Part shown: positions 9,441-62,922 of the stretch, piece by piece | How the letters are laid out: each line of letters starts with the position of its first letter | Numbering within the stretch: position 1 is the stretch's first letter | DNA from: an uncultured virus (IMG/VR IMGVR_UViG_3300031998_000023) | Lineage: Duplodnaviria > Heunggongvirae > Uroviricota > Caudoviricetes | Strand: one strand, 5' to 3' | Length of the DNA: 63,167 bases | Virus record (IMG/VR): IMGVR_UViG_3300031998_000023 | Notes under the pieces: model-generated | The model's input: only the letters and a program-made list of their open reading frames with translations | Told to the model about the DNA's origin: nothing | The model's database searches: none | Program-made: the position numbers and the translations under genes

Positions 9441-9455
9441 TGGCACGGTTTTTGT
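9441..9455 (+). promoter_or_regulatory. class I sigma54-type promoter
   Basis: TGGCACGGTTTTTGT, intergenic. Confidence 0.75.
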
Positions 9456-9486
9456 TAGTGATACAAATGAGCAAAAATAAAATTAA

Positions 9487-9777
9487 ATGAGTAATTTAAA
9501 CTTAATTCAACAAGCTATGGGTTTAATTCACATAATTCCTGTTGTATGCAGTCACGGTGAACTTGATGACAAAAAAGTAGATAAACTATTTGCCTACTTT
9601 ATTTGGTTTGTACTTATGCTGTGTGGTGTTGTCTTTGGATATGTACTTCAAAGTGTTGCTTGGGGAATTGGTGCTACTGCATTTTTTATTATAATTGGAA
9701 TTTGTATCATATTATGGAAAAAAGATACTGAAAAAGAACGTTTAACTAAAAAAGAAAAAGAAAATGAATTGGATTAA
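9487..9777 (+). CDS. membrane protein
   Basis: Two hydrophobic helices. Confidence 0.7.
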   Translation: MSNLNLIQQAMGLIHIIPVVCSHGELDDKKVDKLFAYFIWFVLMLCGVVFGYVLQSVAWGIGATAFFIIIGICIILWKKDTEKERLTKKEKENELD

Positions 9778-9879
9778 TTTTTTCAAGATGTGTTTCTTCT
9801 TCGACCCTATTTGCAAGTGGGCCGTTGCTAACGCTGAACTGATTACTGAGTACATTAACCCTATTATTGCGATGCTATA

Positions 9880-10281
9880 ATGGAAGCAAAAGAGATTTTA
9901 GAAAAACTCAAAGAGGGTGCTAACTTTGAATTGAAGTATGATGAAGATGGCCGATTGGATGGCTATGGCGCTATAAACCGTTTTGAATGCTGTAAGGTTG
10001 GTGGCGGAATGACCCAATCTTGGTATGAAAATGTTCATTATCCTTCAAGAAAGAAAATACTTGAATCACTTCCTTGGAATGTGGTGGAAAACCCACGTAA
10101 TCCAAAAGAAGGTGAATATCCTACAGAAGCCGGCGAATACATTGTAATGCTTGATTGCGATGAACACGCTGTATGGCATAACATATTTCATGATGGGCGT
10201 TGGGTAATATACAACAGGACCCATGTAAAATGGTGGATGCCAATTACTGACGAAATGAAAGAAATTATAAGTAAAAAATAA
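9880..10281 (+). CDS. DUF551-like phage protein
   Basis: PTEAGEYIV...VKWWMPI. Confidence 0.5.
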   Translation: MEAKEILEKLKEGANFELKYDEDGRLDGYGAINRFECCKVGGGMTQSWYENVHYPSRKKILESLPWNVVENPRNPKEGEYPTEAGEYIVMLDCDEHAVWHNIFHDGRWVIYNRTHVKWWMPITDEMKEIISKK

Positions 10282-10292
10282 ATAATATTATT

Positions 10293-10637
10293 ATGGTAGA
10301 ACCGATTAGACCTGAAGAAATTAAAGTGCAAAAGGTTGAATTCCCTGATTTTGTCATTGAAGCCTTCAATGAACTTATTCAAGAAAAATGGAATGAAGCC
10401 AAGAAATCTGCTGTTGTAAAGCAAGAAGAAATCGTTATCAGAATTTTGGAAAAATCAGTTAGCGACAAGAACAACGCAGAAGTTATCGAAAGAAACGAAA
10501 TCTTCAAGAACCACTGGCTTGATGTGGAAGACACATACAGGGCTTATGGATGGGACGTTAAGTACTTCAAGAAGCCTTATTTCGAAACAAAGAAAGATAG
10601 TTATTTTGTGTTTACGAAAAATGAAGAAACAGATTAG
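10293..10637 (+). CDS. hypothetical phage protein
   Basis: PDFVIEAFNELI..WLDVEDTYRAYGWDVKY. Confidence 0.75.
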   Translation: MVEPIRPEEIKVQKVEFPDFVIEAFNELIQEKWNEAKKSAVVKQEEIVIRILEKSVSDKNNAEVIERNEIFKNHWLDVEDTYRAYGWDVKYFKKPYFETKKDSYFVFTKNEETD

Positions 10638-10959
10638 AAAAACAGGCGAAATCATTGAAGTCATCACTTACAGTGGGGGTAGCACTCAAAGAACAGAAAA
10701 TGACTATGTAAGTTATATCAATGAGCGTGGAGAAGAAAGGTCTGCAAAACTCAATTACTTTTGGGATTTGGCTGACGTTGATGATGGCAAAGTATCTTAT
10801 TGGGAAGACTTTAGAAATAAAGCAGCCCTGAAGATATTTTGTAAGAGATTAAGTAGTTGCTATAATGATGAAGACATCATTGATTCAATGAGTTTGTCTA
10901 TTCATTATGCCAATCACTTAACATCAATGCTTATGGACAATAAGTTCAAAAAAGAATAA
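10621..10959 (+). CDS. hypothetical protein
   Basis: Start moved to MKKQIRKTGE. Confidence 0.65.
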   Translation: MKKQIRKTGEIIEVITYSGGSTQRTENDYVSYINERGEERSAKLNYFWDLADVDDGKVSYWEDFRNKAALKIFCKRLSSCYNDEDIIDSMSLSIHYANHLTSMLMDNKFKKE

Positions 10960-10964
10960 TAGAC

Positions 10965-11165
10965 ATGAAAAAGTGGAGATTGACAAAGGTGTTTAGAATT
11001 GATGAACACCTTGTGGTTGCCGACTCTATAGAAAAGGCAATCAAATTATATAAAGCCTATATGGATGATGAATATATCACCATTAAACATGTTGAAACCG
11101 TTTTTGGTGATTACTCATGTATTCAAGATGGCGCAATAATAGAGAGAAAAGAAGATGAATATTGA
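10965..11165 (+). CDS. hypothetical protein
   Basis: ORF in gene run. Confidence 0.65.
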   Translation: MKKWRLTKVFRIDEHLVVADSIEKAIKLYKAYMDDEYITIKHVETVFGDYSCIQDGAIIERKEDEY

Positions 11166-12357
11166 TTTCAAACGTATTTTTACAAATATGCCCATTGGGA
11201 CTAAGTTATATAGCCCAATATGTGGAGAATGTATTCTTGAGCGCATAAATACTGAAGGTGATGTTATCACAAGTTTTACCGATGAAAAAGGTGAGAAAAG
11301 ACACATGACTTTCAACGGTAATTTTGGACTTGTAAAAGATTGTAACCATGGAAAGGTTATGATTTATCCTGATGACGAAATGAGATGGGATTATTGGCAA
11401 ACAAAGTTGTTCAAGAAAGGCGATTATGTTTCAAATTCAAAGGGTTTTATTGCTATTTTCATAAACAAAACCGAATGTTATTCATTCAAAGGTGAAAAAA
11501 AGGCTTTTTTTGACCTAACAACTTTTCACTATGCCGATAAAAAGGAAAGGGAATTGCTTGATAATTCTTTGAGAGAAGAAGGATTTGTTTGGGATGGCAA
11601 TAATATGGCCGTTATTGTTGATACACCTAATTTTAAGATTGGCGAGATAATCAAAGTTAAGAATACTGGTTATTTTAATTCTGGAAATCCTATTAAAATT
11701 GTTGACATTAAGAAAACAAAGTATGTTTTTGAAGACGGAACAACAATGCCAATAGTCAAACAAGGTGAATATGTACATGTAGGATATGCACCAATTTTTA
11801 AGAAAGGACAACTTATCAGGCATAAGACAAATAAAGAACATTTTGTAGTTGATGATGTTACTGAACGCTACTATGTCCTTAAAGGATTAAAAAGACAAAA
11901 TCTTCTTCTTGACTTTCAAAACGAATGGGAAGTAGTTCTTGCTGAGCATCCTGATTATTGTTCATATGGCAATTGTAAGTTATTGTATGAAAATGGATTT
12001 GAATTTGGACCTCCATTTGCTGCTTGTGACTTGTATGATATATATGGATTCTACTCAGGTGATAGCCATCAAGTAGTGTTTGATGATTATGTTGTTGATG
12101 AAAAAGATGTTCTTAGAATACCTCAAGATTCAGCAATTAAATGGATTCGTGACATATACGGAGTTGAAATCGGTACAACTCCTATGGTTGACTCTGAAAC
12201 AAATAAGACTGTTTATATTCCGTATGCAAGAACACGTGATAATGATGGTTTGACATTTGTAAACAGAATGGGATACCAAGAGGTTAAAGAAGTTGAAAGC
12301 CCAAGTGGTGCTATTGATTGCGCAATAAGATTTGTTTTAACAAAACTATACAAATGA
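11155..12357 (+). CDS. multidomain hypothetical protein
   Basis: N-term resembles 16145..16783, two FK.G repeats, C-term KLL.E.GF-family domain. Confidence 0.75.
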   Translation: MNIDFKRIFTNMPIGTKLYSPICGECILERINTEGDVITSFTDEKGEKRHMTFNGNFGLVKDCNHGKVMIYPDDEMRWDYWQTKLFKKGDYVSNSKGFIAIFINKTECYSFKGEKKAFFDLTTFHYADKKERELLDNSLREEGFVWDGNNMAVIVDTPNFKIGEIIKVKNTGYFNSGNPIKIVDIKKTKYVFEDGTTMPIVKQGEYVHVGYAPIFKKGQLIRHKTNKEHFVVDDVTERYYVLKGLKRQNLLLDFQNEWEVVLAEHPDYCSYGNCKLLYENGFEFGPPFAACDLYDIYGFYSGDSHQVVFDDYVVDEKDVLRIPQDSAIKWIRDIYGVEIGTTPMVDSETNKTVYIPYARTRDNDGLTFVNRMGYQEVKEVESPSGAIDCAIRFVLTKLYK

Positions 12358-15098: not shown

Positions 15099-15113
15099 TG
15101 GCACGGTTTTTGA
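15099..15113 (+). promoter_or_regulatory. class I sigma54-type promoter
   Basis: TGGCACGGTTTTTGA. Confidence 0.75.
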
Positions 15114-18524: not shown

Positions 18525-18539
18525 TGGCACGATATTTGT
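18525..18539 (+). promoter_or_regulatory. class I sigma54-type promoter
   Basis: TGGCACGATATTTGT. Confidence 0.75.
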
Positions 18540-20839: not shown

Positions 20840-20854
20840 TGGCACGATTTTTGA
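20840..20854 (+). promoter_or_regulatory. class I sigma54-type promoter
   Basis: TGGCACGATTTTTGA. Confidence 0.75.
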
Positions 20855-23300: not shown

Positions 23301-23315
23301 TGGCACGATTTTTGT
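23301..23315 (+). promoter_or_regulatory. class I sigma54-type promoter
   Basis: TGGCACGATTTTTGT. Confidence 0.75.
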
Positions 23316-25245: not shown

Positions 25246-25260
25246 TGGCACGATTTTTGA
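25246..25260 (+). promoter_or_regulatory. class I sigma54-type promoter
   Basis: TGGCACGATTTTTGA. Confidence 0.75.
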
Positions 25261-28954: not shown

Positions 28955-28969
28955 TGGCACGATTTTTGA
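28955..28969 (+). promoter_or_regulatory. class I sigma54-type promoter
   Basis: TGGCACGATTTTTGA. Confidence 0.75.
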
Positions 28970-31764: not shown

Positions 31765-31779
31765 TGGCACAGTTTTTGA
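31765..31779 (+). promoter_or_regulatory. class I sigma54-type promoter
   Basis: TGGCACAGTTTTTGA, just after TTTGTCGGAAA/TTTCCGACAAA inverted repeat. Confidence 0.7.
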
Positions 31780-34090: not shown

Positions 34091-34105
34091 TGGCACGGTT
34101 TTTGT
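34091..34105 (+). promoter_or_regulatory. class I sigma54-type promoter
   Basis: TGGCACGGTTTTTGT. Confidence 0.75.
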
Positions 34106-38790: not shown

Positions 38791-38805
38791 TGGCACGGTT
38801 TTTGA
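38791..38805 (+). promoter_or_regulatory. class I sigma54-type promoter
   Basis: TGGCACGGTTTTTGA. Confidence 0.75.
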
Positions 38806-39605: not shown

Positions 39606-39620
39606 TGGCATAGTTTTTGA
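39606..39620 (+). promoter_or_regulatory. class I sigma54-type promoter
   Basis: TGGCATAGTTTTTGA. Confidence 0.7.
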
Positions 39621-40007: not shown

Positions 40008-40022
40008 TGGCATGATTTTTGT
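40008..40022 (+). promoter_or_regulatory. class I sigma54-type promoter
   Basis: TGGCATGATTTTTGT. Confidence 0.7.
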
Positions 40023-44756: not shown

Positions 44757-44771
44757 TGGCATGATTTTTGT
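44757..44771 (+). promoter_or_regulatory. class I sigma54-type promoter
   Basis: TGGCATGATTTTTGT. Confidence 0.7.
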
Positions 44772-45241: not shown

Positions 45242-45256
45242 TGGCATGATTTTTGT
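45242..45256 (+). promoter_or_regulatory. class I sigma54-type promoter
   Basis: TGGCATGATTTTTGT. Confidence 0.7.
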
Positions 45257-48914: not shown

Positions 48915-49151
48915 ATAAAATTAAAATTAGATAATAATAAATAGTCGGTAGATATATTAAAAAATTATAATTTTAATTAAAAAAAATAAAGGGTATGCTG
49001 GAGTCTACTCTACTATTCGCTTTTTACGTGTTGGAGTCTACTCTCCTACTCACAGTTTTGCGTTCAGCCCCTGTGTGGCATTTGGCCATCCAATTGTTTA
49101 ATATGTTTCCGATATTACGGCGGTGACTTATTCATAACACTGCAATGTATA

Positions 49152-49166
49152 TCAAAAACCGTGCCA
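49152..49166 (-). promoter_or_regulatory. class I sigma54-type promoter
   Basis: TGGCACGGTTTTTGA on - strand. Confidence 0.75.
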
Positions 49167-49202: not shown

Positions 49203-49237
49203 AAAAAAAAATTGGGCCCTTCTTGCGAAAGGCCCAC
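49203..49237 (-). terminator. intrinsic terminator
   Basis: TGGGCC hairpin followed by T run on - strand. Confidence 0.7.
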
Positions 49238-50308: not shown

Positions 50309-50337
50309 AATATACAAAAATTTTAATTAAACTTCAA
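50309..50337 (-). promoter_or_regulatory. class II (sigma70-like) promoter
   Basis: TTGAAG-N17-TATATT. Confidence 0.55.
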
Positions 50338-51223
50338 TTTTTTCAAGTAAAGATTTCAACCTGGCTTCAGCACCTTTCCTGAGTTGTCTGACTCTCTCAG
50401 ATGTTAAGTTAAGCGCCTCACCGATTTCGATGTTATTGCAAGGCTTATTGTAGTCGCCCATGCCATAAGCCATCTTAATGATTTGTGCCTCACGCTCAGG
50501 GAGCCTTGAAATTGCCTTGGCTACTTCGTAAGCGGTGTCACTCTTCCTGGTTTCGACTTCGTAGTCATTCTCAGTAGACGCATAGTCTGTGAAATCCTTG
50601 GACATCTCGAATGTGTAGTTATCGTCTTCAGAACCATCAGTGGTGTCTTCAATTCTTTCAATTGTGGCTCCATAAATGTCATTTCTGTCAGCGAGTTCGA
50701 TGCCATATTTCTCGAACAGGATGTCTTCCACTTCGAAGATAGTAGGCTTACGGCCCTGAGTTCTGTAGAATTCCTCTTCAATCTTCTTTACCTTAGGAGT
50801 AATCTTTGCATTGTTTGCAGGACGCACCACAAGGTTCTCATCATCCAGGAAGTGCTTGATTGCTCTACGGACGTAGTACTGTGCATACGTCATGAACTTA
50901 TTATCCTTGGTGATGTCGAAGTTGTCAAACGTCTCGTACATACCGATGGTTCCGACATTGATGAGTTCAAGCAGCATTCCATTGTCGCCATTGGAATAAC
51001 AGTTGGCTATGTCATAGAGGAATCTTTGATGTGACATCACAATCTTCTTCTTGATTTCAGTCTTCTCTGCTTCAGACGTACCATCGGCGTAGTACTTCAC
51101 AAGCAGGTCTCTCTCTTCCTCAGGAGAGATAGGTTTGCTCTTGGAGCCCTTGATGTCAGTCAAGTAGGCAACAACGAGGTCATCCTTTTTTCTGATTTTA
51201 TTGTAACTCTTCACATTAATCAT
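50327..51223 (-). CDS. phage-encoded sigma70-family RNA polymerase sigma factor (RpoD/RpoS-like, no region 1.1)
   Basis: YLTDI..PISPEEE (1.2), ELINVGTIG..FD..KFMTYAQYYVRRAI (2), LPEREAQII..EIGEALNLTSERVRQL (4.2). Confidence 0.92.
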   Translation of the reverse strand: MINVKSYNKIRKKDDLVVAYLTDIKGSKSKPISPEEERDLLVKYYADGTSEAEKTEIKKKIVMSHQRFLYDIANCYSNGDNGMLLELINVGTIGMYETFDNFDITKDNKFMTYAQYYVRRAIKHFLDDENLVVRPANNAKITPKVKKIEEEFYRTQGRKPTIFEVEDILFEKYGIELADRNDIYGATIERIEDTTDGSEDDNYTFEMSKDFTDYASTENDYEVETRKSDTAYEVAKAISRLPEREAQIIKMAYGMGDYNKPCNNIEIGEALNLTSERVRQLRKGAEARLKSLLEKIEV

Positions 51224-51438: not shown

Positions 51439-51453
51439 TCAAATATCGTGCCA
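51439..51453 (-). promoter_or_regulatory. class I sigma54-type promoter heading the sigma70 operon
   Basis: TGGCACGATATTTGA. Confidence 0.75.
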
Positions 51454-51523: not shown

Positions 51524-51538
51524 ACAAAAACCGTGCCA
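51524..51538 (-). promoter_or_regulatory. class I sigma54-type promoter (tandem)
   Basis: TGGCACGGTTTTTGT. Confidence 0.75.
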
Positions 51539-51555: not shown

Positions 51556-51587
51556 AAAAAAAAGCACGAAATTCGAGAATTCCGTGC
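51556..51587 (-). terminator. terminator of tRNA/ncRNA operon
   Basis: GCACGGAATT-CTCG-AATTTCGTGC followed by T run. Confidence 0.8.
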
Positions 51588-53629: not shown

Positions 53630-53658
53630 AATATACAATTTTAATTTCTTAATATCAA
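53630..53658 (-). promoter_or_regulatory. class II (sigma70-like) promoter for tRNA operon
   Basis: TTGATA-N17-TATATT. Confidence 0.6.
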
Positions 53659-54059: not shown

Positions 54060-54124
54060 ACTAATTTATTTATTAAAAGTTATTATTAAACTCCTAAAAA
54101 ATAAATAGTATGACAATTATAATT

Positions 54125-54899: not shown

Positions 54900-54914
54900 T
54901 CAAAAACCGTACCA
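54900..54914 (-). promoter_or_regulatory. class I sigma54-type promoter (variant)
   Basis: TGGTACGGTTTTTGA. Confidence 0.6.
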
Positions 54915-55943: not shown

Positions 55944-55958
55944 TCAAAAACCATGCCA
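55944..55958 (-). promoter_or_regulatory. class I sigma54-type promoter
   Basis: TGGCATGGTTTTTGA. Confidence 0.7.
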
Positions 55959-56022
55959 TTTTTCAACTTCATGGATTAAAATTTTTATTTTTTTTCGGGC
56001 ATAATGTTCACTACAATATAGC

Positions 56023-56037
56023 ACAAAAATCATGCCA
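56023..56037 (-). promoter_or_regulatory. class I sigma54-type promoter (empty cassette)
   Basis: TGGCATGATTTTTGT. Confidence 0.7.
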
Positions 56038-56104
56038 AACTATAAAAAAAAAGCGGCACTTTTTCAAGCACCGCTTCCAAAATATTTAGTGAACGCTTTC
56101 AGCC

Positions 56105-56626
56105 TTATTCTGCTTCGTCTTTGAAAAGTGAATTTACTTCCTCAACGAGTTTGTCCATGTCTTGGAGGTCAGCATCATCCAAAATCAGTGTGCCAACATA
56201 ATCATCAAAATCATCGCCAATGAATACATCGTAATAGCCATCGCCATCGCTTGAAGGCTCAATGCAAGCCTCGCCATAGTCGGATTCGACAACAATATGG
56301 ATTCTCGGCAGTCCCCAATCTTCGGCAGTGTCGCAGATGGTGTCCCAATAGTTGCCGTATTCCACCAAATCGGATTCAATTTGTTCGGCAAGTTCTCTCA
56401 TTTGCTCATCGGTTACTTTGGCAGTATCAAAGCCCTTTGAACGTACATCGGTCTTTGAAACACAGGTAACAACGTAGTCGCCTAACATTTCAGTAGGCAC
56501 AAGAAGAAATTCGCCTTCTTCATCATTGCTGACGATAACGCCAACTCTCGTTTTCAATCCCTCATAGGATTTTTCAAGTTGAGCAATACCTTCGTTTTCG
56601 GACTTGTTAATTCTCTTGTAATACAT
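56105..56626 (-). CDS. acidic hypothetical protein
   Basis: Start moved to MYYKR, downstream of promoter. Confidence 0.75.
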   Translation of the reverse strand: MYYKRINKSENEGIAQLEKSYEGLKTRVGVIVSNDEEGEFLLVPTEMLGDYVVTCVSKTDVRSKGFDTAKVTDEQMRELAEQIESDLVEYGNYWDTICDTAEDWGLPRIHIVVESDYGEACIEPSSDGDGYYDVFIGDDFDDYVGTLILDDADLQDMDKLVEEVNSLFKDEAE

Positions 56627-56664
56627 ATTATTTAATTTTAATTGGTTAGACACTTTAATTATAA

Positions 56665-56679
56665 TCAAAAACTATGCCA
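56665..56679 (-). promoter_or_regulatory. class I sigma54-type promoter
   Basis: TGGCATAGTTTTTGA. Confidence 0.7.
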
Positions 56680-56681
56680 AA

Positions 56682-57011
56682 TTACCACGGAATAGGAAAT
56701 TCCATGAAAAATAATTTTGCTGCATATTCATATTGGAAATTTTGTTCTTCCAATACATTGCAATACTCTTTGAAATAAAATTCCTCATCTTCGGACAAAA
56801 GATTCATGGGAAGGGTATCATCCCTATCTTGGCAAGAAATATCTCGGTCAAGAAGGCTATTGACTGCAACCTTTTCTTTTGATTCGTCAAAGATATTGAT
56901 ATAGCCCCAATCATTGAATTGGACTACATAAAAGGACTTGCCTAATTTGTCACTCCAAAACTTGAAGAGAAATCCGTTTTCAAGTTCGATGTTTCCAACT
57001 TCTTTAATCAT
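56682..57011 (-). CDS. hypothetical protein
   Basis: Cassette gene. Confidence 0.75.
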   Translation of the reverse strand: MIKEVGNIELENGFLFKFWSDKLGKSFYVVQFNDWGYINIFDESKEKVAVNSLLDRDISCQDRDDTLPMNLLSEDEEFYFKEYCNVLEEQNFQYEYAAKLFFMEFPIPW

Positions 57012-57048
57012 AGTTCTTATAATTTTAATTGGTTATACTTATTTCCTT

Positions 57049-57063
57049 ACAAATATCATGCCA
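57049..57063 (-). promoter_or_regulatory. class I sigma54-type promoter
   Basis: TGGCATGATATTTGT. Confidence 0.7.
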
Positions 57064-57066
57064 AAA

Positions 57067-57516
57067 TTAGCACTCTACATACCAATATCCGTTAAATTGT
57101 TCTTTGTACCAATCGTAAGATTCATCGTAAGGGATTCTATCTTCATGGGAAATTTCGTGCTTTCTTATTTCTACTATATCACAACCTACCATTTTTTCAA
57201 TCCTTTCCTCAACAATTCTATCCATTACGCTGAAATGGCATTGTTTAATCTCGTTAAGGAAATGTTCAAGTTCTTCAATATTGTGTGCCACAAATCCACG
57301 AACACCCATTTTGAAAACAATAGGAAAATAGTATTTGCCACTTCTAACATCGTACTTATAATATACTGAATAGTGATTGTCGAAAATCTTTGCTCCACTT
57401 AACCTTGCGCCATTCAAACCATTTGCAAGTTTAAGGGCTTGCCAACCATAAGGCTCATTGGCACAATTCCAACCAATCAATTCTTTGAATTTGTCTCTTG
57501 AAATGTAATTTTCCAT
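57067..57516 (-). CDS. hypothetical protein
   Basis: Start moved to MENYISR. Confidence 0.75.
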   Translation of the reverse strand: MENYISRDKFKELIGWNCANEPYGWQALKLANGLNGARLSGAKIFDNHYSVYYKYDVRSGKYYFPIVFKMGVRGFVAHNIEELEHFLNEIKQCHFSVMDRIVEERIEKMVGCDIVEIRKHEISHEDRIPYDESYDWYKEQFNGYWYVEC

Positions 57517-57551
57517 AGTGTGTGTTTGTTTAATGTTCACTGCAATATACC

Positions 57552-57566
57552 ACAAAAACCGTGCCA
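57552..57566 (-). promoter_or_regulatory. class I sigma54-type promoter
   Basis: TGGCACGGTTTTTGT. Confidence 0.75.
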
Positions 57567-57630
57567 AAAAGAGAAAAGCAGTACAAAAAAATGCACTGCT
57601 TTTCAAAAAAATGTGTATTAAGAAAGGAGG

Positions 57631-58500
57631 TTATTTCAGTTCCGTTTCGTAGAGTTTACCCCACCACCAATCCATGTGGTCAATATCATGGATTTCAACG
57701 TAATTGTCTTTTTCGACAATGACAAGTTCTTTCTCTTCGTAGTATTGCAAAAACTCTTCTTTGACATATTCAAGTGTGTCTTTGAGGTCTTGCTTTGCTT
57801 TTTCCTTGCTGTCGAAGGCTGCAATGGCAGGAGCGGAATCATGGTCAACGTACTTGCAGTTCACATACTGACAATTTGTCACATAGACAACTTGGTCATA
57901 GCCGCTTTTTTCAGCCTCTGCAAAGAATTGTGAAAGGTCATTGAAAGAGACACTAAACCAATCCTTGTCAATTTTTGGGGCTTTGTAATCGTGGACTTCT
58001 ACAATGCTGTTGTCGAAAGAAAGAACATGAACATCGTATAATTCTTTGTTGTCGGGGTCTTCAATGCTCAGCAAGCAATAGATACTTCCGCCATGTTTTT
58101 CTGCATAGGCGCACTCAATATCGCCATAGACAACAATCTCTTTGTCATCGAAGCAAATAGGCTTACCATCTTCAACAATGATAAAGTCTCGCTTGTACTT
58201 GTTCATCATGGCACGAGTTTCATCTTCTTCAAGGTTGAGCAAAACGCACCATGAGTTTTCAAACGAAACATCTTCGTTGTTGATATAGTCAAAGAGATTT
58301 CCAACGTTTTCAAAGAACGTTGATTGTGAACGGCTTGACATATTGTAGATGCTTAAATCGTTGCCGAATTGAGCAAGAAGCATCATAAATACTTTCTTTG
58401 AATCTTCTTTTTCGGTAGTGTCGAACATTCTAAACGACTTGTCGGGGTGTTCGATAATTTGATTTTCTTGTGTGCTGATAGGATAAGTAACTAAAATCAT
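57631..58500 (-). CDS. hypothetical protein
   Basis: Cassette gene. Confidence 0.8.
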   Translation of the reverse strand: MILVTYPISTQENQIIEHPDKSFRMFDTTEKEDSKKVFMMLLAQFGNDLSIYNMSSRSQSTFFENVGNLFDYINNEDVSFENSWCVLLNLEEDETRAMMNKYKRDFIIVEDGKPICFDDKEIVVYGDIECAYAEKHGGSIYCLLSIEDPDNKELYDVHVLSFDNSIVEVHDYKAPKIDKDWFSVSFNDLSQFFAEAEKSGYDQVVYVTNCQYVNCKYVDHDSAPAIAAFDSKEKAKQDLKDTLEYVKEEFLQYYEEKELVIVEKDNYVEIHDIDHMDWWWGKLYETELK

Positions 58501-58538
58501 AATGTGTGTTTTTTATTGGTTATACGTTATTATTACTT

Positions 58539-58553
58539 ACAAATATCATGCCA
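58539..58553 (-). promoter_or_regulatory. class I sigma54-type promoter
   Basis: TGGCATGATATTTGT. Confidence 0.7.
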
Positions 58554-59040
58554 AACTATCATCGGCAAAAGTTCCAAATGGACATTCTTTGTCATTGACT
58601 ACTTCGGTGCAATTATCGAAGCACAGCCACATATCCACGTTGTTGTTAGCCCTAAATTTGTTGAGGGCTGCATTAATGGCATCCTCTTCTTCACATTCGG
58701 GCATGGCGTTTTTGTTGATTACGACCCTTGTAGTCAGTTCAAAGGTGACAAGTTTGGCAACCTTTTCGGTTTGCTTTGTCTCTTCTTTGATAACCTCTTT
58801 AACCCTTGCTTCTACAAAGGTTTTAAGATGTTCATGGTAACGAGCCGAAAACTGCACGGCTGTCTCATGTTCAAACTTCTCTTTGAAGATTTTAGCCCAT
58901 TCAAAGGCATACTTTTCAGTGACTTCATTCTTGGTGATGATTTTGTCTTGCAAATCATTGAAAATGGGCGTTGCATAGTTGGCAACATCAATAATGAGAG
59001 AGAGAAAATCAATTTCTTTTTCGCTTGAAAACTTACTCAT
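58546..59040 (-). CDS. hypothetical protein
   Basis: Cassette gene; stop lies inside next promoter. Confidence 0.75.
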   Translation of the reverse strand: MSKFSSEKEIDFLSLIIDVANYATPIFNDLQDKIITKNEVTEKYAFEWAKIFKEKFEHETAVQFSARYHEHLKTFVEARVKEVIKEETKQTEKVAKLVTFELTTRVVINKNAMPECEEEDAINAALNKFRANNNVDMWLCFDNCTEVVNDKECPFGTFADDSLA

Positions 59041-59078
59041 GGTTTATAATTTTAATTGGTTATTTGCTTAATAATAGT

Positions 59079-59093
59079 ACAAAATCCGTGCCA
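59079..59093 (-). promoter_or_regulatory. class I sigma54-type promoter inside a stem-loop
   Basis: TGGCACGGATTTTGT; AAAATCCGTGCC/GGCACGGATTTT inverted repeat. Confidence 0.75.
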
Positions 59094-59136
59094 AAGTTGC
59101 CAAAGGCACGGATTTTTTTACACACAATATGAAAGA

Positions 59137-60210
59137 TTAGAAAAGATTGTCGTATTGATTTTTAAGTTCATCAATCATGTGGGCAATGTCGCAAGGTTCA
59201 CCTACAAAGACGATGTTCCAACCATTTTCTTTGTCATCCTCAATGTCAATGTTTCCATAGTTTTGGTAGATAGCATCAACGCCATAGTTTTTGATAACCT
59301 TAAAGACAACGTACTTCATTTCATCGTAAATGTGTACCATTTGGTCATGGAACGTTGCGGCACTTCCAAACTTGAATTTGTAGGTGAGAATGTTGGCCAT
59401 GATTTCAAAGTATTGGTCATCGCTCAACTTGGAACAAAGGTCACGATGATTTTGTGGCAGTTCGTTTTTGTGTTCAGCAACAATAGAGTGCTTTCTTTCG
59501 ATAACAAAGATTTTTTCGCCTTCGGGCTGTCTATCGTCAATATCCTCCCTAACAAGGTTAATCATGGTAGAATTGCCATCGCAGATAGTCAGCATACCGA
59601 TAAACCATCTTTGCCACTTCTCCAACTTTTCCTCTTCAACGGGCAAATCCCAATAGTTGAACAAGGTGCAGCGAACATCAATGAATTGTTCACTTTCATT
59701 GAGATATTCCAAGATTTTGCCATAGGAAACTTCGTCAGTTTTGCCGCCAAGTTGAGCAAGGGCGTTTTGATACAAAGCCTCGCCAATGACGTGTTCTTGA
59801 ACAAAGTCGCCTTCGCTTGCAATGGCGTTAAGGTCGCTATCCTTATATTCATTGATAAGATTATAAAGAACATCGTTAAACCTTTCGGGGGTCTTGTAGG
59901 TTTCACGGATATAGCCCATGATGTTACCAATAATGACTTCACGCATGGAAACTTCGGTTTTGAAGATTTCCCAAAGAGACACACCTGCATCATCCCTTGC
60001 GTAGTCGTAGCCGATGCAAAGGCTTCCATCTTCGTAGCCGTTGGGTGCATCCAATTCTTCCATTGGAATCTCATCGCCACACTTCTTCAAATAATCGTAT
60101 ATTTGTTGAATCATTTGTTTGTGCGCTTGTTCGTGGGACACAAAGGTAAACACCTGCTTTGGTGAAAATGATTCTTGGGTCAAGGTCTCGGTTAATGTGT
60201 AGATAATCAT
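59137..60210 (-). CDS. hypothetical protein
   Basis: Cassette gene with own promoter and leader. Confidence 0.8.
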   Translation of the reverse strand: MIIYTLTETLTQESFSPKQVFTFVSHEQAHKQMIQQIYDYLKKCGDEIPMEELDAPNGYEDGSLCIGYDYARDDAGVSLWEIFKTEVSMREVIIGNIMGYIRETYKTPERFNDVLYNLINEYKDSDLNAIASEGDFVQEHVIGEALYQNALAQLGGKTDEVSYGKILEYLNESEQFIDVRCTLFNYWDLPVEEEKLEKWQRWFIGMLTICDGNSTMINLVREDIDDRQPEGEKIFVIERKHSIVAEHKNELPQNHRDLCSKLSDDQYFEIMANILTYKFKFGSAATFHDQMVHIYDEMKYVVFKVIKNYGVDAIYQNYGNIDIEDDKENGWNIVFVGEPCDIAHMIDELKNQYDNLF

Positions 60211-60250
60211 AATGTGTGTTTTTTTAATTGGTTAGACGTTTCTATTTACA

Positions 60251-60265
60251 GCAATAATCGTGCCA
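60251..60265 (-). promoter_or_regulatory. class I sigma54-type promoter (canonical -12)
   Basis: TGGCACGATTATTGC. Confidence 0.8.
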
Positions 60266-60285
60266 AAGGTACGCATTTGCGTATA

Positions 60286-60456
60286 TTATTCGTAATTTTT
60301 AATTGAAATTTTGTTTCTTTTACGATTGTAGAGTTTTTTTGACTTATGTACTCTTGAAGGTCGGAGGCTTATAATTTTCCCATGAGCCTTGATTTCTCTT
60401 TCTCGGTCAAGTTGGCAAGCAACCTTTACACTATCGTATTTCTTTTTCTTTTTCAC
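60286..60456 (-). CDS. small basic protein (56 aa), ArfA-like motif
   Basis: GTG start coupled to upstream stop; REIKAHGK..RPSRVHKSKKLYNRKRNK. Confidence 0.6.
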   Translation of the reverse strand: MKKKKKYDSVKVACQLDREREIKAHGKIISLRPSRVHKSKKLYNRKRNKISIKNYE

Positions 60457-60635
60457 TGCTCAACTAAAATTTTATCTTGCGGGTCATCGCTTTGGTAGAT
60501 GTATGCTTTTTCGGCTTTCTTGGATGAGCATTGCAATCTTGCGTAGTCCATGCAAAGAGCCAAACACTCAAATTCTCTTATTTCTCTATCAACGACTGAT
60601 AAATCGTTAAGCCATTCTATTGAATATTGTCTCAT
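60453..60635 (-). CDS. hypothetical protein
   Basis: Coupled ORF. Confidence 0.65.
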   Translation of the reverse strand: MRQYSIEWLNDLSVVDREIREFECLALCMDYARLQCSSKKAEKAYIYQSDDPQDKILVEQ

Positions 60636-60799
60636 TCTCCCTGCCCTTCCATGTGCTTATCAATTACTTCTTGTGCTTTTTCCAAAGTTGGGCAATTTAC
60701 CTCTTCAATATCTTCATAATTGTTAAAGGCAATGTAAGCACTGAAAGTTCCGTCAGACCATTTGCGGATTTGATTCCCTTTATAGATAATAGTTTCCAT
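60632..60799 (-). CDS. hypothetical protein (55 aa)
   Basis: Read manually: METIIYKG... Confidence 0.6.
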   Translation of the reverse strand: METIIYKGNQIRKWSDGTFSAYIAFNNYEDIEEVNCPTLEKAQEVIDKHMEGQGE

Positions 60800-60807
60800 A
60801 ATTTTAA

Positions 60808-60822
60808 TCAATTTCTATGCCA
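60808..60822 (-). promoter_or_regulatory. class I sigma54-type promoter (degenerate)
   Basis: TGGCATAGAAATTGA within end of upstream ORF; very close to next ATG. Confidence 0.45.
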
Positions 60823-61140
60823 AAATTCATATTCTTTGTCATCAACGCCAATTAACTTGTAATTGAAAGCATTGATAAGCCAACCATAATCATCGGACAA
60901 TTTGTCAGCAAGTCCATTGACAAACTCTTTGACAACTTCCAAATCATTTGTTGCTTGGGGTAATGGATAGTATTTTTCAGTCGGGAGGTTTGCTTCAATC
61001 TCTTCGATTGCTGCATCAATTTCTTCACCCGTCATATCGTCAGTGTCATAGACATCTTCGATTTCAACGCACCAATCAATTTCAGTGCATTTTACACCTT
61101 TGATTTCGGTTTTACACCAACCCATATTGACTTTTGCCAT
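60808..61140 (-). CDS. acidic hypothetical protein
   Basis: Cassette gene. Confidence 0.75.
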   Translation of the reverse strand: MAKVNMGWCKTEIKGVKCTEIDWCVEIEDVYDTDDMTGEEIDAAIEEIEANLPTEKYYPLPQATNDLEVVKEFVNGLADKLSDDYGWLINAFNYKLIGVDDKEYEFWHRN

Positions 61141-61175
61141 AGTATTTAATTTTAATTGGTTATACTATTATTATA

Positions 61176-61190
61176 GCAAAAAGTGTGCCA
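61176..61190 (-). promoter_or_regulatory. class I sigma54-type promoter (canonical -12)
   Basis: TGGCACACTTTTTGC. Confidence 0.8.
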
Positions 61191-61192
61191 AA

Positions 61193-61450
61193 TTATTCCC
61201 AAATGGAAAGGTTTTTAATCTTTTCTTGATTTTCTTTTGTGAGGTTGTCAAACTCTTTCCAATACCCATTGTTTTCTTCGTCAAGCAAATAGGCAAGCAA
61301 TTCGTTGGATTCCTCAAAGTAAACGAGTTGAGCAAGTTCAAGCCCATCATCAATTACTTCATCGTAAATATCAACATACTTTTCATCGGCTTCAACACCT
61401 GCTTCACCTTCAGCCTTGATAATGGCAATGATTTCTTCTTTTGTTTTCAT
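61193..61450 (-). CDS. acidic hypothetical protein
   Basis: Cassette gene. Confidence 0.75.
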   Translation of the reverse strand: MKTKEEIIAIIKAEGEAGVEADEKYVDIYDEVIDDGLELAQLVYFEESNELLAYLLDEENNGYWKEFDNLTKENQEKIKNLSIWE

Positions 61451-61487
61451 GGATTATAATTTTAATTGGTTAGCGACTACAATATAC

Positions 61488-61502
61488 ACAAAAACCATGC
61501 CA
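61488..61502 (-). promoter_or_regulatory. class I sigma54-type promoter
   Basis: TGGCATGGTTTTTGT. Confidence 0.7.
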
Positions 61503-61504
61503 AA

Positions 61505-62035
61505 CTATTCAAAGTATGACAAGGCTTCGTAATTAAATCTAACAAAATCTTTTTCTTTATGGCAGACTTCCTGCAAGATGGAAACCCAATTTTCCATAGG
61601 AGTATTTTCTTTGATGAACTTGTTAATCATATTGCAGAAAAACGTAACTTCATCCAAAATATCCTCATTAGTGTTTTTAGGAAAACCTAAACTCAATGCT
61701 TCCCCAAGATTGGAAATGAACATTGAGGTAAAGAATCCATGTAAGCCCATGCTGTCGCCAAACTCGGAGGCATAACACCAAATTCCAATTATCTTTCTAT
61801 CTTTGCAGTATTCCTTTGCAATTCTCCAATCAAATACATAACCTCGCCAATCCTTACTGAACAATCCGCTACGGCTACCATGACCCAACAAAAGAATTGT
61901 ATCATCGTCATTTTTGGCTAATTCATGCACAACATCATCCCTTGTAGGATTATACAATAAAGTACAATCAATCCCTTCATAAACAGCCTTCAGTCTTGCT
62001 GTATCTTCCATCGAATCAATGTGAATAACAATCAT
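61505..62035 (-). CDS. hypothetical protein, possible His-Cys peptidase fold
   Basis: LLLGHG...IGIWCYA. Confidence 0.7.
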   Translation of the reverse strand: MIVIHIDSMEDTARLKAVYEGIDCTLLYNPTRDDVVHELAKNDDDTILLLGHGSRSGLFSKDWRGYVFDWRIAKEYCKDRKIIGIWCYASEFGDSMGLHGFFTSMFISNLGEALSLGFPKNTNEDILDEVTFFCNMINKFIKENTPMENWVSILQEVCHKEKDFVRFNYEALSYFE

Positions 62036-62069
62036 TTCAATTTTAATTTAATGTTCACTACAATATATA

Positions 62070-62084
62070 ACAAAAAGTGTGCCA
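62070..62084 (-). promoter_or_regulatory. class I sigma54-type promoter inside a stem-loop
   Basis: TGGCACACTTTTTGT; AAAGTGTG/CACACTTT inverted repeat. Confidence 0.75.
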
Positions 62085-62130
62085 AACTTTTCAGTAAGAC
62101 ACACTTTCGCACCAATTAAAAATTAAACAT

Positions 62131-62397
62131 CTATGAATTTTTGTATTCGGCTTCGCTGATGAAGATTCGTACCCCATCGGTTGCTTCGTAGCCTTCATTG
62201 TAGGCGGCATAACTCGTTTCCGTGACTTCCTCGGTGTCGTAGTTGAGGCTACCTACCTTTTGTTCTTCTTTTTCTTTTACGATTTCTTCTTGCAGGACTT
62301 CCTTTGCCTTGTCCATGCTGTCAGTTACTGCAATAGTTTTGATTTCGATGTTGAAATCATAATTGCAATTTTTGATAATGACGTATTTCTTTTCCAT
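62131..62397 (-). CDS. hypothetical protein
   Basis: Start moved to MEKKY, after tRNA-Lys. Confidence 0.7.
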   Translation of the reverse strand: MEKKYVIIKNCNYDFNIEIKTIAVTDSMDKAKEVLQEEIVKEKEEQKVGSLNYDTEEVTETSYAAYNEGYEATDGVRIFISEAEYKNS

Positions 62398-62417
62398 AGT
62401 TTGAGTTTTTAAGTGTG

Positions 62418-62490
62418 TGCGCTCGGTGGGACTCGAACCCACGACTCCCACATTAAAAGTGTGGTACTCTACCGACTGAGTTACGGACGC
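62418..62490 (-). tRNA. tRNA-Lys(TTT)
   Basis: Cloverleaf, CTTTTAA loop, one acceptor-stem mismatch. Confidence 0.9.
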
Positions 62491-62530
62491 AAAATATATC
62501 GGTCTTATGTCCGATTGCCATCTAATAGTA

Positions 62531-62578
62531 ATTTTGCCGTGCGACTGCGAAGGGATTTTGCCTTGCCACTGCGAAGGG
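62531..62578. repeat. 24-bp tandem duplication
   Basis: ATTTTGCCGTGCGACTGCGAAGGG / ATTTTGCCTTGCCACTGCGAAGGG. Confidence 0.8.
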
Positions 62579-62907
62579 TCTTTCCTATTAGATATATTAT
62601 AATTTCTATTTGGGCGATGCTCTTGCCAAGGTCATGGACTTTTTGTTTCTATTGCGGCTTTGTAACGTATCCCGAACTTTACCCTATAAACCGCTCTCTT
62701 TTATTGGGGTTTCTATCACTATTAAATTATCAAAAATATCAAATATATATTACCGATTTACGGCTGACCTCTAATGCTTTTCATATTCAAAGATGCTCTT
62801 ATATAATTACAAATTCCGGATTATTACTTGGTTTTAGTTTGCTTTGGGCTTGTCTCTCGGTCTCATACTATTTAGCGATTTAGATGTTAGACTTCGATTT
62901 ATTACTT

Positions 62908-62922
62908 ACAAATATCGTGCCA
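62908..62922 (-). promoter_or_regulatory. class I sigma54-type promoter
   Basis: TGGCACGATATTTGT. Confidence 0.75.

What the first reader, a model, noticed from the sequence alone, without database searches (positions are those of the whole stretch)
9441..62922. Phage-wide regulon of 31 sigma54-type (-24/-12) promoters with a mostly altered -12 element
Seen: TGGCAYR-N4-TTGW with invariant spacing occurs 14 times on + (9441, 15099, 18525, 20840, 23301, 25246, 28955, 31765, 34091, 38791, 39606, 40008, 44757, 45242) and 17 times on - (49152, 51439, 51524, 54900, 55944, 56023, 56665, 57049, 57552, 58539, 59079, 60251, 60808, 61176, 61488, 62070, 62908). Every copy is co-oriented with local transcription, nearly all are intergenic, and most lie 25-40 bp before an ATG. 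Established: this is the RpoN consensus TGGCACG-N4-TTGC. Sigma54 normally needs an AAA+ enhancer-binding protein, and the -12 GC helps hold the closed complex. Only 2 of 31 copies keep TTGC (60251, 61176); the rest read TTGA or TTGT. Inference: the phage drives its early/accessory genes with host (or phage-encoded) sigma54, possibly in an activator-bypass mode enabled by the -12 change. Characterised phage early promoters are sigma70-type or use phage RNAPs, so this would be an unusual transcription strategy.
Basis: partly seen in the sequence, partly recalled or inferred. Interest (0 to 1): 0.88.

Follow-up and report, generated by a model that had tools for sequence, protein, structure and literature searches.

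The report
Sigma-54-type promoter array in jumbo phage
A giant gut/rumen phage carries dozens of copies of the promoter signature normally read by the bacterial sigma-54 factor in front of its small accessory genes, which, if the host factor really reads them, would be a way of running a phage gene programme that has not been described.

Summary
The window has 28 exact TGGCAYR-N4-TTGW sites (0.56 expected), two TTGC sites and one TGGTAC variant. All 31 are co-oriented with the genes, and 24-25 lie 23-43 nt before a start codon. Several sit directly behind terminators, so they are promoters.

The window belongs to a jumbo T4-superfamily myovirus whose promoters and SD-less leaders point to a Bacteroidota host. 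Five related viral contigs carry 16-68 such sites each. One reads the textbook sigma-54 consensus, TTGGCACG-N4-TTGCA, so the T/A at -12 here is lineage drift within a sigma-54-type motif.

No phage rpoN, bEBP or RNA polymerase was found. The phages do encode two sigma-70-family factors and use two further promoter classes: a Bacteroidota sigma-A type and a late ACTATTTAT type.

Best reading (about 0.6): host sigma-54 holoenzyme reads these promoters and the activator is unknown. Main rival (about 0.2): the phage sigma inside the array reads them. That fits poorly, because no -10 element lies at a fixed distance.

The activator-bypass idea is not supported, since bEBP-dependent Salmonella psp promoters also read TTGT. 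"Phage-wide" overstates it: the sites fill only the accessory-gene region. No start sites could be mapped.

The parts
9441..9455 (+). sigma-54-type promoter site TGGCACGGTTTTTGT
   Evidence: ATG of 96-aa ORF 31 nt downstream
15099..15113 (+). site TGGCACGGTTTTTGA
   Evidence: ORF start 34 nt downstream
18525..18539 (+). site TGGCACGATATTTGT
   Evidence: ORF start 32 nt downstream
20840..20854 (+). site TGGCACGATTTTTGA
   Evidence: ORF start 32 nt downstream
23301..23315 (+). site TGGCACGATTTTTGT, behind a hairpin plus T-run
   Evidence: 52-aa ORF 11 nt downstream; HD/AAA_33 gene starts at 23454
25246..25260 (+). site TGGCACGATTTTTGA
   Evidence: ORF start 24 nt downstream
28955..28969 (+). site TGGCACGATTTTTGA before the radical-SAM gene
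   Evidence: ORF start 30 nt downstream
31765..31779 (+). site TGGCACAGTTTTTGA, subclass followed by TATATTGCAGTG
   Evidence: 42-aa ORF 31 nt downstream
34091..34105 (+). site TGGCACGGTTTTTGT before the GmrSD_N-like gene
   Evidence: the orthologous promoter in G004 keeps the core
38791..38805 (+). site TGGCACGGTTTTTGA
39606..39620 (+). site TGGCATAGTTTTTGA
40008..40022 (+). site TGGCATGATTTTTGT
44757..44771 (+). site TGGCATGATTTTTGT
45242..45256 (+). site TGGCATGATTTTTGT
49152..49166 (-). site TGGCACGGTTTTTGA, behind terminator 49213-49236; no ORF within 80 nt
51439..51453 (-). site TGGCACGATATTTGA, proximal promoter of the operon holding the phage sigma gene
   Evidence: the G004 orthologue keeps the core
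51524..51538 (-). site TGGCACGGTTTTTGT, in tandem 85 bp upstream of 51453, directly behind terminator 51564-51587
54900..54914 (-). variant site TGGTACGGTTTTTGA, abutting a palindrome
   Evidence: ATG 43 nt downstream
55944..55958 (-). site TGGCATGGTTTTTGA
56023..56037 (-). site TGGCATGATTTTTGT, in tandem upstream of 55958, behind terminator 56049-56078
56665..56679 (-). site TGGCATAGTTTTTGA
57049..57063 (-). site TGGCATGATATTTGT
57552..57566 (-). site TGGCACGGTTTTTGT, 6 nt behind terminator 57573-57604
58539..58553 (-). site TGGCATGATATTTGT
59079..59093 (-). site TGGCACGGATTTTGT
60251..60265 (-). site TGGCACGATTATTGC (canonical -12), behind a palindrome
60808..60822 (-). weakest site TGGCATAGAAATTGA, inside the end of a gene, ATG 8 nt downstream
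61176..61190 (-). site TGGCACACTTTTTGC (canonical -12)
61488..61502 (-). site TGGCATGGTTTTTGT
62070..62084 (-). site TGGCACACTTTTTGT
62908..62922 (-). site TGGCACGATATTTGT, upstream of tRNA-Lys (62417-62490)
50327..51223 (-). phage sigma-70-family factor sigma1 (298 aa), downstream of sites 51453 and 51538
   Evidence: Pfam Sigma70_r2 and r4; PDB hits to SigB/RpoD/SigA over residues 58-290; orthologues in G004, G002, G005 and G007
53630..53638 (-). -7 box (TTGTATATT) of a Bacteroidota sigma-A-type promoter, TTTG about 20 nt upstream, before tRNA-Gly
   Evidence: consensus from PMC7366714
52286..52294 (-). -7 box of a second sigma-A-type promoter in the tRNA cluster
50309..50317 (-). sigma-A-type -7 box before ORF 49990-50301
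48937..48944 (-). late-type promoter core CTATTTAT before ORF 48660-48914
54101..54108 (-). late-type promoter core CTATTTAT before ORF 53697-54059
57573..57604 (-). intrinsic terminator (13-bp stem, T-run) abutting promoter 57566
56049..56078 (-). intrinsic terminator abutting promoter 56037
51564..51587 (-). intrinsic terminator abutting promoter 51538
49213..49236 (-). intrinsic terminator upstream of promoter 49166

Best explanation
The 31 sites are promoters of sigma-54 (RpoN) type. They drive small accessory-gene operons and the phage sigma gene sigma1 in a jumbo T4-superfamily myovirus whose host is most likely a ruminant-gut Bacteroidota. The most likely reader is the host RNA polymerase carrying host sigma-54. 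It would bind TGGCAYG at -24 and TTG(T/A/C) at -12 and start about 12 nt further on, which gives leaders of about 21-23 nt.

Shown: the sites are promoters, the motif and its rigid spacing are those of sigma-54 promoters, and the phage clade has no recognisable rpoN, bEBP or RNA polymerase of its own.

Inferred: The T or A at -12 is drift within the range that sigma-54 tolerates. It is not evidence for activator-independent initiation.
For: 1. Match to sigma-54. The window consensus is (a)aGTT-TGGCAYGRTTTTTGW. The G002 consensus is AGTTTGGCACGgtTtTTGCATAAt, with C at -12 in 44 of 68 sites. In the 40 kb of G007 that I fetched, C occurs in 14 of 19. The 15-mer TGGCATGATTTTTGT, found at four window sites, equals the first 15 bases of the Salmonella pspG sigma-54 promoter listed in PMC3844500.

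2. Rigid bipartite geometry. 26 of 26 intergenic TGGCAYR have TTG at exactly N4. In five orthologous promoter pairs between the window and G004, the two half-sites persist while the N4 and the flanks change.

3. Promoter function. The strand bias is complete. The motif-to-ATG distance peaks at 31-38 nt in the window, G001, G004 and G002. Sites with an ATG-initiated ORF within 80 nt: window 28 of 32, G001 55 of 66, G004 46 of 56, G002 61 of 72, against 0.33-0.40 at random positions. Strong terminators stand 6-50 nt upstream of four sites, which leaves no room for another promoter.

4. No sigma-70 architecture. No position 16-32 exceeds 0.7 bit. TAnnnT hexamers are enriched downstream, but their starts are spread over positions 15-25. 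TTGGCA read as a -35 element would lie only 9-14 bp from them.

5. No rival machinery found. Sigma54_DBD is absent from 10 related or candidate contigs and Sigma54_CBD from 7. The RNAP families PF00623 and PF00562 are absent from 7. PHROGs named no RNA polymerase among 148 G004 proteins.

6. Both phage sigmas carry canonical -10 and -35 reading motifs. Two other promoter classes exist for them to read.

7. Bacteroides thetaiotaomicron rings for the sigma-54 families in the tool's control genomes, so the inferred host phylum can supply the factor.
Against: No transcription start site, rpoN dependence or binding was measured. The two RNA runs are kept only as contigs and gave no 5' ends.

Sigma-54 needs a bEBP, and none was found. 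The PF00158 hits are ClpA/B-like chaperones. The other AAA proteins are classical AAA, PF00004. PF14532 gave only sub-threshold matches. No conserved upstream activator site accompanies the sites.

C at -12 is kept in only 2 of 31 window sites.

The phage sigma1 gene lies inside the array in all five lineages where it was seen, behind TGGCA promoters, as an autoregulated middle sigma would.

Three promoter classes could be assigned neatly to host sigma-A plus two phage sigmas. The sigma1 region 4.2 (SERVRQ) could in principle read TTGGCA as a -35-like element.

TATA-like hexamers are enriched just downstream: TATAWT in 36-38% of sites in the window, G001 and G004, 12% in G002 and 18% in G005, against 2-5% in control leaders.

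The host is inferred, not identified, and the contigs are 41-93% complete.
Confidence: 0.6

Rival explanations
1. SPO1-like cascade. Host sigma-A reads the TTTG/TAnnTTTG-type promoters. The phage sigma-70-family factor sigma1 (window 50327-51223) reads the TGGCA class as middle promoters. Sigma2 reads ACTATTTAT as late promoters. The likeness to the sigma-54 consensus is then a coincidence.
For: Two conserved phage sigmas and three promoter classes. Sigma1 lies within the array in the window, G004, G002, G005 and G007. Read-through from the sigma-A-type tRNA promoters upstream (window 52294, 53638) could prime sigma1. The conserved region 4.2 SERVRQ could read TTGGCA as TTGnCn. G008 and G009 carry sigma genes and only 5-6 sites each, but both are about 53% complete.
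Against: No -10 element lies at a fixed distance, and TAnnnT starts are spread over positions 15-25. The invariant TTG at exactly N4 would fall in a spacer, which sigma-70-family factors do not read. The motif core does not change between lineages whose sigma1 proteins share only 29-57% identity and differ in region 2.4. All the specified positions of the sigma-54 consensus would have to match by chance. Sigma2 has no TGGCA site within 1.5 kb upstream in any of 4 genomes, so no middle-to-late link is visible.
Confidence: 0.2
2. Sigma appropriation or a new specificity factor. An unrecognised phage protein binds the 15-bp box and recruits RNA polymerase to the weak TATA-like element just downstream, as T4 MotA/AsiA do at middle promoters. 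Alternatively an undetected phage polymerase reads the box.
For: TATA-like hexamers are enriched right after the box. Most window proteins have no family: searches scanned 145 ORFs and gave 16 a Pfam match above the curated cut-off. Large proteins of 1209-2423 aa in G004 have no match above the Pfam cut-off and no PHROG match.
Against: The box would cover about -27 to -13, where a bound protein would be expected to block the polymerase rather than recruit it (general knowledge of promoter geometry). The hexamer register varies. No DxDGD-type catalytic motif is shared among the phages (a crude test). The identity with the sigma-54 consensus is again left unexplained.
Confidence: 0.12
3. Activator-bypass version of the sigma-54 reading. 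Because C at -12 is replaced by T or A, host sigma-54 holoenzyme opens these promoters without any AAA+ activator.
For: No bEBP and no conserved upstream site was found. The region melted on opening is AT-rich and TATA-like.
Against: Related phages keep TTGC at most sites: G002 44 of 68, the fetched part of G007 14 of 19. The Salmonella pspA and pspG promoters read TTGT yet are listed among the sigma-54 promoters studied with an activator. That wild-type sigma-54 has no known activator-independent natural promoter is recalled knowledge, not a call.
Confidence: 0.08

Closest known systems
Bacterial sigma-54 (RpoN) -24/-12 promoters, for example Salmonella pspG and pspA
   Same: TGGCAY(G/A)-N4-TTG core, rigid spacing and an AT-rich stretch after -12. 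pspG as listed in PMC3844500 begins with the same 15-mer as four window sites, and pspA also reads TTGT.
   Different: Here there are 31 copies in 63 kb of a phage, and 64 in the near-identical contig G001. They stand 300-600 bp apart in places, have no recognisable enhancer sites, and carry T or A at -12 in 29 of 31. Dependence on rpoN and on a bEBP is untested.
Pseudomonas phage YuA sigma-54-like promoter
   Same: A virulent phage with a promoter region associated with sigma-54 (passage of PMC10914365 citing Ceyssens et al. 2008).
   Different: That passage names one sigma-54-like promoter region among other classes. Here a whole gene block is served by dozens of them, in a different phage lineage and host phylum.
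Phage-encoded sigma cascades (Bacillus phage SPO1 gp28 and gp33/34; T4 gp55)
   Same: The phage encodes its own sigma-70-family factors and has temporally distinct promoter classes. The late class ACTATTTAT stands before capsid, portal and sheath genes.
   Different: The TGGCA class lacks the -35/-10 architecture that such factors read. The details of the SPO1 and T4 systems are recalled, not taken from a call.
Bacteroidota sigma-A promoters (TTTG at -33, TAnnTTTG at -7)
   Same: A second promoter class in the same phage matches this consensus (consensus quoted from PMC7366714). The T-run plus G of the TGGCA class superficially resembles the TTTG of the -7 box.
   Different: The TGGCA class has G or A where the -7 box has TA. 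It has no TTTG about 20 nt upstream and carries the extra invariant TGGCAY.

Membership tests
sigma-54-dependent promoter | -24 element TGGCAC with invariant GG, at a fixed distance from the -12 element | tested here: met
   GG in 31 of 31, TGGCAY in 30 of 31 (one TGGTAC), TTG at exactly N4 in 31 of 31. 26 of 26 intergenic TGGCAYR carry the TTG.
sigma-54-dependent promoter | GC (TGC) at -13/-12 | tested here: inconclusive
   G in 31 of 31 but C in only 2 of 31 in the window. C in 44 of 68 in G002 and 14 of 19 in the fetched part of G007. Listed Salmonella sigma-54 promoters include TTGT and TTGA.
sigma-54-dependent promoter | Transcription starts about 12 nt downstream of the -12 element | not testable with these tools
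   Only assembled RNA contigs were available and they gave no 5' ends. Weak purine and G preferences at motif positions 26 and 29 fit but prove nothing.
sigma-54-dependent promoter | Dependence on rpoN | not testable with these tools
   No phage rpoN: PF04552 absent from 10 contigs and PF04963 from 7. The host was not identified. Bacteroides thetaiotaomicron rings in the tool's control for both families.
sigma-54-dependent promoter | Activation by an AAA+ enhancer-binding protein, usually from an upstream site | tested here: inconclusive
   No phage bEBP. No conserved upstream motif in the 30 nt before the site. A palindrome precedes 3 of 31 window sites. Host bEBPs could not be examined.
sigma-70-family (phage sigma) promoter | -35 and -10 elements 16-19 bp apart, with a conserved -10 at a fixed distance | tested here: not met
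   No position downstream of the motif exceeds 0.7 bit. TAnnnT starts are spread over positions 15-25. TTGGCA would lie 9-14 bp from them.
sigma-70-family (phage sigma) promoter | A phage-encoded sigma factor is present | tested here: met
   Sigma1 at window 50327-51223 and sigma2 in relatives.
T4 MotA/AsiA-type middle promoter | Activator box replacing -35, at a fixed distance from a good -10 element | tested here: not met
   The box abuts the TATA-like hexamers and their register varies. PHROGs named no MotA or AsiA among 148 G004 proteins of 180 aa or more, and smaller proteins were not scanned against PHROGs.

The most novel reading that the evidence does not exclude
A clade of jumbo myoviruses of gut and rumen Bacteroidota runs its whole accessory-gene programme, and the expression of one of its own sigma factors, through host sigma-54. 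That means at least 64 promoters in one near-identical contig. The clade encodes no recognisable enhancer-binding protein. The phage would then have to open sigma-54 closed complexes in a new way: by a non-canonical phage-encoded activator, by hijacking a host bEBP that acts from solution, or by easier melting of its own DNA.
Probability: 0.3. Interest if true: 0.9.

Novelty: new variant of a known kind. Interest (0 to 1): 0.8.

Why it matters
Sigma-54 promoters stay silent until an ATPase opens them. Until now they have been treated as a cellular device for tightly gated operons. Seven literature searches found no phage that serves whole gene blocks with them. The only precedent they turned up was a single sigma-54-like promoter region in Pseudomonas phage YuA.

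It would also raise a sharp question that can be tested: what activates 60 or more promoters that have no enhancers?

If a phage sigma-70-family factor reads them instead, it would be the first such factor known to recognise a -24/-12-like element.

Either way, the three promoter classes give a usable transcription map for an uncultured phage clade.

Tried and rejected
1. Mapping start sites from public RNA. Two metatranscriptome runs (sheep gut and bovine gut, coded X1 and X2) hold 13-15% of the sampled words of window 53600-63100. They are kept as contigs, and their ends did not line up with predicted starts. No conclusion was drawn.

2. Host identification through an IS-type transposase of G004 in genome contigs. 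The best match was 35% identical, to an uncultured Spirochaetales genome, which is uninformative.

3. Folding the conserved AAA protein (G001 38798-39913) to test for a bEBP-like fold. Mean pLDDT was 46 from a 4-sequence alignment, so it is unusable and was not sent to fold search. Its ALLRKGRL motif looks like the second region of homology of classical AAA proteins; that reading is from recall.

5. Close DNA relatives among deposited phages: none. The capsid-based relatives Flavobacterium phage immuto and Microcystis phage Mel-JY01 have 0 sites, the metagenomic record LR756508 has 2, Prevotella phage Lak-B5 has 4 in 543 kb and MT835492 has 0. No cultured model is therefore at hand.

6. A fourth promoter class was sought by k-mer enrichment and not found.

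7. Reading the motif as an mRNA element was rejected, because terminators abut several sites.

8. Contig G010 has 29 TGGCAY-N5-TTG sites and no Sigma70_r2 match. I considered it as independent support but set it aside. Its sites lie on both strands in a low-coding region, mostly without ORFs, and it shares neither of the two AAA proteins tested, the only proteins compared with it.

Full report
**Observation.** The stated pattern TGGCAYR-N4-TTGW occurs 28 times in the window. Dinucleotide shuffles give 0.56 on average, a maximum of 3, and none of 100 reached 28. The looser TGGCAY-N5-TTG gives 32 matches against 1.58 expected. Those are the 28, the two TTGC sites at 60251-60265(-) and 61176-61190(-), and two TGGCATT matches at 38177 and 38683 that I take as chance. 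It is the only intergenic, co-oriented one-mismatch variant. The -12 base is T in 16, A in 13 and C in 2.

All 14 + sites lie at or below 45256 and all 17 - sites at or above 49152. This matches the change of coding strand near 48 kb. 27 of 31 overlap no called ORF, and 24 of 31 have the next same-strand start 23-43 nt after the motif. That becomes 25 with a 42-aa ORF after 31765. The two half-sites are coupled: 26 of 26 intergenic TGGCAYR carry TTG at exactly N4, against 4 of 36 genic ones. The extended consensus is (a)aGTT-TGGCAYGRTTTTTGW followed by an AT-rich stretch.

**They are promoters.** Strong intrinsic terminators stand directly upstream of sites 49166, 51538, 56037 and 57566. At the last one only 6 nt separate the terminator from the motif. 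The downstream genes therefore need a promoter, and the motif is the only conserved element there. The same argument excludes an element inside the mRNA.

The distance from motif to ATG is sharply peaked. Sites with an ATG-initiated ORF of 35 aa or more within 80 nt number 28 of 32 in the window, 55 of 66 in G001, 46 of 56 in G004 and 61 of 72 in G002. Most of those distances fall at 31-38 nt. At random positions the fraction is 0.33-0.40.

**What the window is.**
- GC content is 33-40%.
- There are about 147 mostly small ORFs. Searches scanned 145 of them against Pfam, and 16 scored above the curated cut-off.
- It has six tRNA genes.
- It has one sigma-70-family gene, sigma1, at 50327-51223(-).
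- No whole genome is held. Viral contig G001 (148 kb, CheckV 41% complete) is essentially the same phage: 124 of 145 crude window ORFs hit it, with a median of 100% identity.
- The more complete relative G004 (303 kb, 82%) has a T4 gp23-like capsid protein, portal, sheath, baseplate, terminase pieces, DNA polymerase, helicases, anaerobic NrdD and many homing endonucleases. I scanned 148 of its 162 ORFs of 180 aa or more; the 14 that crossed fetch boundaries were left out.
- No RNA polymerase was found. PHROGs named none. PF00623 and PF00562 were absent from 7 contigs. PF00940 was absent too, but its control rang nowhere. No DxDGD motif is shared (a crude test).

**Host inference.**
- Start codons lack Shine-Dalgarno sequences. 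5-mer SD frequency is 0.01-0.03 in G001, G004 and G002, at background.
- A second promoter class matches the Bacteroidetes sigma-A consensus, which is TTTG near -33 and TAnnTTTG at -7 as quoted in PMC7366714 (passage). In the phages it reads tTTG-N about 20-TATATTtG. In the window it precedes the tRNA cluster at 52294(-) and 53638(-), and ORFs at 4392, 6545, 26821 and 50317.
- The abstract of PMC3155529, seen only in the search listing, states a general absence of SD sequences in Bacteroidetes.
- NrdD points to an anaerobic host.
- The only RNA runs holding parts of the window are sheep-gut and bovine-gut metatranscriptomes. Their shares are small, 0.13-0.15, but in X2 14 of the 45 laid contigs are 99% or more identical.

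**The motif in relatives.** A scan of viral contigs with the extended motif, followed by pattern searches by handle, found arrays in five related contigs besides G001 and its near twin G006 (31 W-ending sites).

| Contig | TGGCAYR-N4-TTGN sites |
|---|---|
| G002 | 68 |
| G003 | 18 (W-ending only) |
| G004 | 52 |
| G005 | 17 |
| G007 | 22 (TTGH) |

The reversed-pattern controls gave 0-2. G001 itself has 64 such sites.

These contigs share proteins with the window or with G004. G004 is hit by 23 window ORFs at a median of 58% identity, G005 by 15 and G002 by 11. 79 G004 ORFs hit G003.

The sites are confined to one block. In G004 that block is 4.5-34 kb plus 262-298 kb. In G001 it is 56-148 kb, with none in the first 56 kb.

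C at -12 varies by lineage:

| Lineage | Sites with C at -12 |
|---|---|
| Window | 2 of 30 |
| G001 | 7 of 64 |
| G004 | 12 of 52 |
| G005 | 7 of 17 |
| G002 | 44 of 68 |
| G007 (fetched part) | 14 of 19 |

The G002 consensus, AGTTTGGCACGgtTtTTGCATAAt, is the textbook sigma-54 promoter. G007 has only 35% GC, so the loss of C at -12 is not simply a base-composition effect. In five orthologous promoter pairs between the window and G004 the half-sites persist while the N4 and the flanks diverge.

Arrays are absent from the nearest deposited phages by capsid or sigma similarity.

**Other promoter classes and sigmas.** K-mer enrichment in upstream regions without TGGCA sites shows aACTATTTAT in all four genomes. 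For CTATTTAT, G004 has 34 of 100 regions against 0.9 expected, and G005 has 46 of 172. It stands before the capsid, portal, sheath and baseplate genes, so it is the late class. Two copies lie in the window, at 48944 and 54108 on the - strand. No fourth class emerged.

Every lineage has two sigma-70-family genes. Sigma1 is 298 aa and most like SigB, RpoD and SigA across regions 2-4, with region 4.2 SERVRQ conserved. It lies in the array behind TGGCA promoters. Sigma2 is 238 aa and RpoS/SigA-like, with WWIRQ and KERIRQ. It is co-transcribed with an SbcC-like gene and has no TGGCA site within 1.5 kb upstream in 4 of 4 genomes.

**Who reads the TGGCA class?** For host sigma-54:
- The sequence match covers every specified consensus position in G002, and every one except C at -12 in the window.
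- The spacing is rigid.
- There is no conserved -10 element. No position 16-32 exceeds 0.7 bit.
- The core does not change across lineages whose sigma1 proteins are only 29-57% identical.
- Bona fide sigma-54 promoters in Salmonella read TTGT or TTGA. pspG is listed as TGGCATGATTTTTGTAAG, pspA ends in TTGTATT, and STM0649.S ends in TTGATTA (table passages of PMC3844500).
- Both phage sigmas carry canonical -10 and -35 reading motifs, and two other classes are available for them.

Against:
- No bEBP was found. The PF00158 hits are ClpA/B-like chaperones. Two AAA proteins are PF00004. PF14532 gave only sub-threshold matches in one of them.
- No enhancer motif is conserved.
- TATA-like hexamers are enriched after the motif. 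TAnnnT occurs in 62-75% of sites in the window, G001, G004 and G002, and in 45% in G005, against 27-40% in control leaders. TATAWT occurs in 12-38% against 2-5%. Their register varies.
- Sigma1 sits in the array, as an autoregulated middle sigma would.
- TTGGCA resembles a -35 hexamer. It would, however, lie only 9-14 bp from the TATA-like hexamers. That is too close for a sigma-70-family factor; this point rests on general knowledge of promoter geometry.

I put host sigma-54 at about 0.6, a phage sigma at about 0.2, another phage factor at about 0.12, and the rest on other readings.

**The bypass idea.** The T or A at -12 cannot by itself indicate activator independence. Relatives with TTGC use the same architecture, and the psp promoters with TTGT are classical sigma-54 promoters. 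How the promoters are opened remains the open question. That no natural activator-independent sigma-54 promoter is known is from recall.

**Novelty.** Seven full-text searches found no report of a phage promoter set of sigma-54 type. The nearest precedent is one sigma-54-like promoter region in Pseudomonas phage YuA (passage of PMC10914365). The two other hits for sigma54 together with 'jumbo phage' were irrelevant (passages). Subscription-only papers were not searchable.

**Limits.** No start sites, no host genome and no binding data are available. The relatives are incomplete contigs (41-93%). My ORF calls are crude. The RNA evidence rests on contigs only.

Noticed in passing
window 49183-49196, 52946-52959, 53679-53692, 54918-54931, 60270-60283: A 14-bp palindrome, TACGCA(A/T)TTGCGTA, always with the same asymmetric flank (AATATA on the gene-sense side). 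It lies just upstream of three TGGCA-type sites, between two tRNA genes, and upstream of a sigma-A-type promoter. There are 8 copies in G001, 6 in G004, 7 GC-extended copies in the fetched part of G007, and none in G002 or G005. It may be an operator or an activator site.
   Followed up: partly
window 31765, 49166, 51538, 56037, 57566, 61502, 62084: A subclass of the sites is followed by TATATTG(C/T)AGTG(AACATT). Four of these stand directly behind strong terminators. Two are the upstream member of a tandem pair about 80 bp before a second site, and three have no ORF within 80 nt. They may be dual promoters or starts of small RNAs.
   Followed up: partly
window - strand leaders, e.g. 56640-56626, 58515-58500, 61465-61450: Many - strand leaders share (G)TCTAACCAATTAAAATTA 8-12 nt before the ATG. 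G007 has the same leader. It may be a translation-initiation element for SD-less mRNAs.
   Followed up: no
G010 (147.5-kb viral contig) 3-16 kb; loci L311-L318: A phage contig that shares neither of the two proteins tested (GC 43%, CheckV 86% complete, no Sigma70_r2 match) has 29 TGGCAY-N5-TTG sites, 25 of them TTGC. 27 are packed on both strands into a 13-kb stretch of low coding density and most are not followed by ORFs. This could be an array of sigma-54 binding sites with another purpose.
   Followed up: partly
L020 and about 20 sibling loci (IMG/VR contigs of about 11.5 kb from one metagenome): Small linear contigs with terminal inverted repeats of 250 bp or more. Each repeat holds three tandem copies of a unit of about 50 bp that ends in TTGGCACG-N4-TTGC/T, all pointing inward.
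   Followed up: partly
G001 55-65 kb (loci L122, L123): Several sigma-A-type promoters (55240, 56493, 58908, 64241) are followed by GC-rich, non-coding-looking sequence, interleaved with three TGGCA sites. These are probably further tRNA or other RNA genes. They were not scanned.
   Followed up: no
G004 246802-247518(-); G006 8288-9001(+): A second phage sigma factor (238 aa, RpoS/SigA-like, apparently lacking region 3) is co-transcribed with an SbcC-like nuclease gene and conserved in all lineages.
   Followed up: partly
G005 upstream regions: In G005 alone, AGGAGGT is enriched before a subset of genes (8-9 regions against about 0.6-0.9 expected; 5-mer SD before 10% of genes against 3% background). 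Yet its sigma-A-type promoters fit the Bacteroidota consensus best.
   Followed up: no
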